Made by a program: the position numbers and the translations under genes. Shown here one piece after another: positions 46,609-51,483 of a DNA stretch of 64,000 nucleotides. Location: assembly GCF_009914755.1 (NCBI RefSeq), contig NC_060926.1. One strand, 5' to 3'. The notes below the pieces were generated by a model. That model was given only the letters and a program-made list of their open reading frames with translations. It did no database searches and was not told where the DNA came from. Position 1 is the stretch's first letter; each line of letters opens with the position of its first letter. Origin of the DNA: the human T2T-CHM13v2.0 reference genome, Homo sapiens.

Positions 46609-50665
<4,057 letters not shown>

Positions 50666-50690
50666 GGTTTTTCTTTTTTGCCTTAATGAT

Positions 50691-50938
50691 TTTTTTTTTC
50701 TCTGAGATTAAACTTTATTAAAGTTACTTTTCCAGAAAATTCAGTGAATATGGTAACATAGGAACAAACTTAGGCTCATAAGCCCTTTACATTTTTACAT
50801 AATCTTTAATGATGTTGATCAGGAAATTCTTTCACTGGTAGAATTACTTCTCCATTCTCCAGAATTGTATCATCTGGGAATATTCTGGGCTTCTTTTCAA
50901 TGGTGCCATATGGTTTTTTTAGATACATGATACTTCTT
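50691..50938 (-). pseudogene. 5'-truncated NDUFB6 processed pseudogene
   Basis: Minus strand gives KYHVS(K)[36 protein letters not shown] (1-nt slip in the A-run), resembling the NDUFB6 C-terminus; then 3'UTR, AATAAA and poly-A. Confidence 0.85.
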
Positions 50939-50990
50939 GGTGCTCTATATGTTCAGAGAAACTTCTCTAGTAACAAACTATAGAAATGAT
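50939..50990 (-). ncRNA. U3 snoRNA 5' fragment (pseudogene) fused to the NDUFB6 copy
   Basis: Minus strand ATCATTTCTATAGTTTGTTACTAGAGAAGTTTCTCTGAACATATAGAGCACC matches recalled U3 nt ~19-70. Confidence 0.88.
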
Positions 50991-51483
50991 GATTTTTTAT
51001 TTTTTAAACAGTAGAGACAGGGTCTCCGCATGTTGCCCAGGCTGCTCTCGAACTCCTGGGCTCAAGCAATCCTCCTGCCTCAGCTTCCCAAAGTGCTGGG
51101 ATTGTAGCTGTGAGCCACCACACCTGGTGATTTTTAGGATTTTAAAAGAACACGTTGAAAAATTAGCTCTGTATCTGTGAAATGAGTTACAAACAATTGG
51201 CCGAGTATTTTGGTCGGTTTGTTTTTCATCTGTAACAGGGGATAGGTTTGGCTGAGCAGAAAGGCCATAGGAAACTGCTTCACTAAACTTCGCTCACTCA
51301 GAACCCTCAGACTTTCAAAGAGCCAGGAAATGGGTATAAAATTTTTGAGATAACATTAATTAAGCTTTTTGCAGTTTTTCCTAGGACCAGATTAAACAGA
51401 AGTTTTCCTTTACAGTATTCATTATGGTTGGTATCTCCAGAGTTCATCCTTTTTTTGTGGTACTGGGAAAAGTTGCAACATTT

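What the first reader, a model, noticed from the sequence alone, without database searches (positions are those of the whole stretch)
50691..50990. Chimeric U3 snoRNA-NDUFB6 mRNA retrocopy in an ELMOD3 intron
Seen on the minus strand: ~52 nt of the U3 5' domain joined directly, same orientation, to the 3' part of an NDUFB6-like cDNA (C-terminal codons, 3'UTR, AATAAA, poly-A). Established: L1 machinery makes snRNA-fusion retrogenes, mostly U6-L1 and U3-L1. A U3/cellular-mRNA fusion is a rarer class and records either template switching or a ligated/associated U3-mRNA substrate. A possible short TSD (atgattttt) is obscured by a neighbouring Alu monomer at ~51001-51127.
Basis: partly seen in the sequence, partly recalled or inferred. 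Interest (0 to 1): 0.7.

Follow-up and report, generated by a model that had tools for sequence, protein, structure and literature searches.

The report
U3 RNA–NDUFB6 fused retrocopy
A 50-base piece of the U3 small nucleolar RNA sits fused directly to a spliced copy of the tail end of the NDUFB6 mRNA inside an ELMOD3 intron, a likely dead fossil of one LINE-1-driven insertion in which the copying enzyme probably jumped from one RNA to the other; this kind of chimera is already known.

Summary
On the minus strand, U3 nt 19/21-70 (49 of 52 bases match the chr17 U3 genes) joins, in the same orientation and with 0-1 nt of microhomology, a spliced NDUFB6 3' fragment. That fragment has two introns removed, the stop codon, AATAAA and a short A-tail. 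One 10-bp target-site duplication (AAAAAATCAT) brackets both parts. It sits in the A-tail of a separate Alu monomer, giving a target-site triplication. The best reading is one L1-mediated insertion (about 90%), most likely an ORF2p template jump into U3's single-stranded hinge; prior RNA ligation and capture of self-primed U3 cDNA remain open. Among 71 3'-truncated U3 copies surveyed, U3 ends cluster at nt 66-77. At least four are fused to mRNA (NDUFB6, RPL9, SERP1-like, probably MAD2L1), against about 19 fused to L1. So U3-mRNA fusions recur, and the class is described in print. The one oddity is that this copy alone (1 of 71) has lost U3 nt 1-18, at a spot where the target site matches U3. 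No sign of function. Primate orthologs could not be checked. New member of a known kind.

The parts
50989..50998 (-). 5' copy of the 10-bp target-site duplication (AAAAAATCAT); its last 2 nt are shared with U3 nt 19-20
50939..50990 (-). U3 snoRNA nt 19-70, cut at both ends; 3 substitutions, one of them CpG decay
50937..50938 (-). Two ambiguous junction bases (AA): U3 nt 71-72 with CpG decay, or NDUFB6 with one T-to-A change, or untemplated
50921..50938 (-). Last 18 nt of NDUFB6 exon 2 (5' truncation point of the mRNA copy)
50875..50920 (-). NDUFB6 exon 3 (45 nt plus a 1-nt insertion that shifts the frame), spliced to exons 2 and 4
50701..50874 (-). NDUFB6 exon 4: C-terminal codons, stop at 50808-50806, 3' UTR, AATAAA at 50719-50714
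50696..50700 (-). Remnant of the poly(A) tail, running into the A's of the 3' TSD
50686..50695 (-). 3' copy of the 10-bp target-site duplication; the next base (T) extends the match to U3 nt 19-24 to 6 nt
50999..51127 (-). Neighbouring Alu left-arm monomer of J/FLAM type (label recalled) with its A-tail; host site of the chimera, judged a separate earlier insertion
51128..51135 (-). Third copy of the target core (AAAAATCA), the monomer's own 5' TSD: target-site triplication

Best explanation
This is a fused copy of U3 nt 19/21-70 and the spliced 3' end of NDUFB6 mRNA inside one target-site duplication, likely made in a single LINE-1-driven insertion when the reverse transcriptase probably jumped from the mRNA onto U3. 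Inferred steps: (1) L1 endonuclease nicked the A-tail of an existing Alu monomer (AT/AAAA site). (2) ORF2p primed on the NDUFB6 poly(A) tail, copied about 238 nt and stopped in exon 2. (3) It jumped, with 0-1 nt of microhomology, to U3 at nt 70-72, the predicted single-stranded hinge just 5' of U3's terminal stem where most truncated U3 copies end. (4) The 5' join formed early, at U3 nt 19-21, where the target site matches U3, so nt 1-18 were lost. The product would be inert: no U3 promoter, no U3 3' domain, a frameshifted NDUFB6 fragment without a start codon, antisense within an ELMOD3 intron. A single insertion event is about 0.9 likely; the template-jump route in particular about 0.55.
For: Shown: identity of both parts and loss of both introns; one exact 10-bp TSD around both parts and none around either alone; one copy only, with no other NDUFB6 3' copy among the 3 candidates found. 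U3 3' ends fall at nt 66-77 in 59 of 64 scorable copies, mode 71 (7 of 71 not scorable). 15 of the 19 published U3/L1 rows seen end at nt 68-76. The predicted U3 fold leaves nt 65-74 unpaired, next to the stem of 75-79 with 213-217. The U3 break is the same with tails, L1 or mRNA partners, so U3 sets it, not the partner. Junction microhomology in the four U3-mRNA cases is short (0-1, 0, 2-3, 0 nt in the simplest readings). ORF2p template jumping and untemplated addition are shown in vitro (PMC10830420, passages). Internal switching onto 3'-truncated U5 and U3 is proposed in PMC4476161 (passages). Triplicated target sites are read as consecutive insertions in PMC1687206 (passages). A local 6-mer occurs in U3 nt 1-72 only 1.7-2.9% of the time, so the target-U3 match at the only 5'-truncated copy (1 of 71) is likely causal.
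Against: Sequence cannot separate a first-strand jump from RNA ligation or cDNA capture; PMC6789731 leaves this open for U3. The TSD is A-rich (3 of 10 bases are not A) and the tail is short. The 5' join shows only 2 nt of overlap as it stands; the 6-nt match would need a 3-nt slip. The monomer is not measurably older than the chimera (6 of 98 non-CpG differences from a local consensus, against 17 of 237 for the NDUFB6 part versus the modern gene). The same 5-mer as in the TSD also occurs in NDUFB6 7 nt past the junction, which is unexplained. The U3 fold is a prediction.
Confidence: 0.55

Rival explanations
1. One insertion, but from a chimeric RNA formed beforehand: U3 was cut in its hinge, ligated (for example by RtcB) to a 5'-OH fragment of NDUFB6 mRNA, and the fusion was retrotransposed through its poly(A) tail.
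For: This route is shown for U6/L1 and is raised for 3'-truncated U3 in PMC6789731 (passages). A blunt junction and a fixed U3 end fit.
Against: U3 has no native cyclic-phosphate end. Common ends after G71 and A68 do not fit the pyrimidine preference of RNase A-type enzymes (recalled). The RPL9 case shows 2-3 nt of microhomology. No U3-mRNA pairing signal: junction windows were no better than shuffles; best window 52 of 100 shuffles for the retrocopy, 21 and 43 of 100 for two other partners, 3 of 100 for the modern parent.
Confidence: 0.22
2. One insertion in which a free, self-primed U3 cDNA was patched in as filler at the 5' end of a truncated NDUFB6 retrocopy, bridged to the target by microhomology.
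For: The predicted fold puts U3's 3' end paired to nt 75, ready to prime copying from nt 74. Self-primed U3 pseudogenes are cited in PMC1687206 (the 74-nt cDNA length is recalled, paper not read). The 5-mer shared by target, U3 and NDUFB6 would suit repair by microhomology.
Against: It needs a cDNA-cDNA join with 0-1 nt of overlap. All four mRNA partners are sense to U3, as are 95.5% of U3/L1 chimeras, whereas filler capture could take either orientation.
Confidence: 0.12
3. Two independent insertions side by side: a tailless U3 copy landed at the 5' edge of an earlier NDUFB6 retrocopy, or the reverse.
For: Tailless truncated U3 copies with their own TSD exist (L003, L005). The 12 bases after U3 loosely resemble those before it (8 of 12).
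Against: Those 12 bases match NDUFB6 exon 2 at 11 of 12 in register. No NDUFB6 sequence lies 5' of U3, and no second TSD was found.
Confidence: 0.05
4. A tripartite chimera, Alu monomer-U3-NDUFB6, made by two template jumps and bracketed by the outer 8-bp repeat.
For: The outer repeats exist (51135-51128 and 50694-50687). A second jump would explain the loss of U3 nt 1-18. Ages are not separable. Tripartite SINE-U6-L1 elements are described (PMC2104539, passages and Background section).
Against: The middle repeat would then be a coincidence: it needs U3 to break exactly where it mimics the target, plus a 3-nt duplication. Triplication by consecutive insertion explains it directly.
Confidence: 0.04

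Closest known systems
Chimeric retrogenes of Buzdin type (small RNA fused 5' of L1, Alu or processed mRNA); Group IV snRNA pseudogenes of Doucet et al. 2015 (PMC4476161)
   Same: Small RNA 5' of a 5'-truncated polyadenylated RNA, same orientation, direct join, one TSD, A-tail (features listed). PMC1687206 names U3 or U6 fused to a processed mRNA as known.
   Different: The 5' part is not full length: it is 3'-truncated, as usual for U3, and also lacks nt 1-18, which is unique among the 71 copies seen. The partner is NDUFB6, not found in the searches run.
U3/LINE-1 chimeras (Law et al., PMC13174262 / bioRxiv 2025.02.02.635956)
   Same: Sense orientation and U3 3' end near nt 70-72.
   Different: Partner is a cellular mRNA. 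The 19 published rows seen start at U3 nt 1-8; this one starts at nt 19-21.
U6/L1 chimeras formed by RtcB ligation (PMC6789731)
   Same: Same overall layout; ligation to non-L1 RNAs is shown for U6.
   Different: U6 is full length with a native cyclic phosphate. U3 here is cut internally, so the ligation route is unproven.
3'-truncated (tailless or A-tailed) U3 pseudogenes; NDUFB6 processed pseudogene
   Same: Same U3 break point; ordinary 5'-truncated, intronless mRNA copy.
   Different: Here the two are joined inside one TSD.

Membership tests
L1-mediated chimeric retrogene (small RNA-mRNA) | Two cellular RNAs joined directly in the same orientation | tested here: met
   at most 2 ambiguous bases at the join
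L1-mediated chimeric retrogene (small RNA-mRNA) | 3' part is a 5'-truncated, RNA-derived copy ending in an A-tail | tested here: met
   two introns removed, AATAAA, short A-run
L1-mediated chimeric retrogene (small RNA-mRNA) | One TSD flanks both parts, at an L1 endonuclease-type site | tested here: met
   exact 10 bp, A-rich; AT/AAAA site, a site scored as an EN motif in the PMC13174262 table
L1-mediated chimeric retrogene (small RNA-mRNA) | Both parts appear together at the orthologous site in one lineage | not testable with these tools
   no relatives held for this genome
Chimeric retrogene, strict U6-type definition (PMC2104539) | 5' part is a full-length copy of the small RNA | tested here: not met
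   U3 nt 19-70 of 217; published U3 chimeras are also mostly truncated, so it is filed with the U3 subtype, not the U6 type
U3-type chimera | U3 3' end near nt 68-76, sense orientation | tested here: met
   ends at nt 70-72
U3-type chimera | U3 5' end usually kept (typical rather than required) | tested here: not met
   nt 1-18 absent; 1 of 71 copies
Functional U3 snoRNA gene | Full-length RNA with the 3' domain, over the Rfam cut-off | tested here: not met
   12.4 bits against a cut-off of 34
Functional NDUFB6 retrogene | Intact reading frame | tested here: not met
   covers residues about 86-128 only, frameshifted, no start codon
RtcB-ligated chimeric RNA pseudogene | Chimeric RNA exists before reverse transcription | not testable with these tools
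   needs RNA data or a cell assay
Tripartite chimeric retroelement | Three RNAs within one TSD, all of one age | tested here: inconclusive
   an inner repeat favours consecutive insertions; the age test did not separate them

The most novel reading that the evidence does not exclude
U3-mRNA retrocopies (NDUFB6, RPL9, SERP1-like, MAD2L1) are fossils of a recurring RNA event in the germ line: U3 is cut at a defined hinge position (about nt 71) and its 5' domain is ligated onto broken mRNAs, making capped U3-mRNA hybrids that L1 occasionally copies. The four loci would give exact junction types to look for in RNA data.
Probability: 0.2. Interest if true: 0.62.

Novelty: new member of a known kind. 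Interest (0 to 1): 0.3.

Why it matters
The locus itself is most likely inert. Its value is as a record of L1 biochemistry. How 3'-truncated U3 gets fused to other RNAs (template jump, ligation or self-primed cDNA) is stated as open in PMC6789731. Four U3-mRNA cases with one U3 break and unrelated partners show that the U3 side fixes the event and that L1 RNA is not needed as the partner. This copy also suggests that a chance match to the target site can cut short the 5' partner.

Tried and rejected
Rfam scans do not detect the U3 piece on their own; identity rests on alignment to the genomic U3 genes. U3-mRNA base pairing near the junction: no signal; one window of the modern parent reached 3 of 100 shuffles, but the retrocopy gave 52 of 100. 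Dating the Alu monomer against the chimera: inconclusive. Second copy of the same junction or another NDUFB6 3' retrocopy: none among the candidates. Missing U3 nt 1-18 displaced upstream of the monomer: not found within 360 nt. Two further unexplained U3 flanks (L047, L075) are single-copy, so no mRNA partner. The rule-based L1 count of 18 includes 2 that look Alu-adjacent by eye (L036, L069) and misses L025, L080 and probably L067, hence 'about 19'. Of the 29 'other' copies only 3 were searched against the genome, so 4 mRNA partners is a lower bound. Literature: a search for NDUFB6, pseudogene, retrocopy, ELMOD3 (3 of 4 terms) gave 0 papers; NDUFB6, ELMOD3, SERP1 and RPL9 are absent from 6 supplements of PMC13174262 (a seventh file was too large, and MAD2L1 was not searched). 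Searches showed no listing about this locus. Buzdin 2003, Garcia-Perez 2007 and Gilbert 2005 were not held, so their tables may list it. Earlier scan findings were not available.

Full report
Observation. Reading the minus strand and searching the genome with window 50691-50995 splits the element in two. The 5' part matches five chr17 loci at 49 of 52 bases; Rfam scores these as full-length U3 (181-199 bits), which places the piece at U3 nt 19-70. The 3' part matches three chr9 exons whose flanks are AG and GT; the introns are absent in the window. The peptide from 50919-50809 is the C-terminus of NDUFB6 (Pfam E 2.1e-8; PDB residues 92-128). The alignment to the spliced parent has 17 mismatches in 237 bases and one inserted base that shifts the frame. 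AATAAA and a short A-run follow. The copy is unique: only itself and two parent exons were found (3 of 3 candidates).

Boundaries. An exact 10-bp repeat lies at 50998-50989 and 50695-50686, at an AT/AAAA site. Its 8-bp core occurs a third time at 51135-51128, directly 5' of the Alu monomer. PMC1687206 (passages) reads such triplications as consecutive insertions at one site. The simplest history is that the monomer inserted first and the chimera later entered its A-tail. I could not confirm the order by age: the monomer differs from a local consensus of 26 similar arms at 6 of 98 non-CpG sites, no more than the chimera differs from its parents. The Alu at about 50385-50664 has its own repeat and is unrelated.

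Junctions. At the U3-NDUFB6 join two A's are ambiguous: U3 nt 71-72 with CpG decay, or NDUFB6 with one change, or untemplated. Microhomology is 0-1 nt in any reading. At the 5' join the TSD's last 2 bases overlap U3 nt 19-20, and the pre-insertion target matches U3 nt 19-24 over 6 bases. Only 1.7-2.9% of local 6-mers occur in U3 nt 1-72. The same 5-mer also occurs in NDUFB6 7 nt past the junction; I have no tested explanation for that.

Survey. I examined 81 loci: 24 and 57 fetched from the lists. One search listed 100 of 119 matches, and most known full-length copies were left out on purpose, so the set is incomplete and leans to young copies. Of the 81, 71 are 3'-truncated U3 copies, 7 long copies and 3 false hits. 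U3 3' ends lie at nt 66-77 in 59 of 64 scorable copies, mode 71. In the supplement of PMC13174262, 15 of the 19 U3/L1 rows I saw end at nt 68-76. The predicted U3 fold leaves nt 65-74 unpaired beside the terminal stem. About 19 copies are fused to L1 (rule-based 18, adjusted by eye; Pfam anchors). Three more are fused to mRNA. L090 carries a spliced RPL9 3' end; no TSD was found. L020 carries the 3' UTR of a chr3 RAMP4-family gene, SERP1 by recalled position, with a degenerate TSD seen by eye. L072 carries MAD2 coding exons joined across a 4.7-kb gap; its 3' end and TSD are unresolved, so it is only probable. The window's copy is the only one of 71 with no trace of U3 nt 1-18; others that align from nt 9-15 keep their first bases across small indels.

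Mechanism. Shown: the parts, their order, splicing, the repeat and the shared U3 break. Inferred: target-primed reverse transcription from the NDUFB6 poly(A) tail, a stop in exon 2, transfer to U3 at its hinge, and an early 5' join at the target-U3 match. ORF2p jumps templates and adds untemplated bases in vitro (PMC10830420, passages). PMC4476161 (passages) proposes internal switching for 3'-truncated U5 and U3. PMC6789731 (passages) shows RtcB ligation for U6 and leaves U3 open. I put one event at about 0.9, split as jump 0.55, prior ligation 0.22 and capture of self-primed cDNA 0.12. Independent insertions get 0.05 and a tripartite element 0.04. Tests for U3-mRNA pairing were negative.

Age and function. 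The 3' UTR differs from the parent at 5 of 105 bases. The copy keeps a proline where human NDUFB6 has serine and the non-human chains shown have proline, so some differences arose in the parent. An origin tens of millions of years ago, in an anthropoid ancestor, is likely but rests on recalled substitution rates. The element is antisense in an ELMOD3 intron, has no annotated exon, and lacks U3's 3' domain and a reading-frame start. I did not test transcription.

What is known. PMC1687206 refers to retrogenes with U3 or U6 fused to L1, Alu or a processed mRNA, citing Buzdin 2002 and 2003 and Gilbert 2005. PMC2104539 (Background section and passages) lists the defining features. The bioRxiv version of Law et al. 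(passages) gives U3 as 8.5% of 253 L1 chimeras, mostly truncated and sense. PMC2912911 and PMC5470649 were seen as passages and added only background. Bernstein 1983 was seen only as a reference title; its cDNA length is recalled. Buzdin 2003, Garcia-Perez 2007 and Gilbert 2005 could not be read, and their tables could list this locus. The searches did not find it. The names FLAM, SERP1, MAD2L1 and SNORD3 are recalled labels on tool-supported identities.

Verdict. A real, correctly read chimeric retrocopy and a new member of a known kind, with one small twist (5' truncation of U3 at a target match) and three sibling loci. Interest 0.3.

Noticed in passing
L090 (chr17:4,170,8xx-4,171,113, minus): U3 nt 1-73 fused to a spliced RPL9 3' end with 2-3 nt of microhomology; no TSD found.
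   Followed up: partly
L020 (chr17:11,984,88x-11,985,164, minus): U3 nt 1-70 fused to the 3' UTR of a chr3 RAMP4-family gene (SERP1 by recall), with AATAAA, an A/CA-rich tail and a degenerate TSD.
   Followed up: partly
L072 (chr19:35,570,09x-35,570,4xx, plus): U3 nt 1-68/71 followed by MAD2 coding exons joined across a 4.7-kb gap of the parent, apparently skipping an exon; 3' end obscured by an Alu.
   Followed up: partly
L037 (chr3:62,388,1xx-62,388,26x): U3 copy with its 5' end, a T-run and about 25 unrelated bases, then U3 again from nt 15: an internal duplication around the same U3 nt 19-27 stretch.
   Followed up: no
L024 and L027: U3 copies that keep nt 1-5 and then skip to nt 13 or about nt 11: small internal deletions near the 5' end.
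   Followed up: no
L034:U3 flank and L078:U3 flank: Two unrelated loci have U3 nt 1-68 followed by the same repeat family (about 74% alike), family not identified.
   Followed up: no
L088:451-783: U3 nt 1-71 runs directly into an endogenous-retrovirus integrase fragment (Pfam IN_DBD_C); insertion into it or fusion not resolved.
   Followed up: no
window 50362-50677: An Alu on the minus strand with its own 13-bp repeat, 8 bp from the chimera's 3' TSD; three retro-insertions cluster within about 40 bp of original sequence. It forms an inverted pair with the Alu ending near 50298.
   Followed up: no
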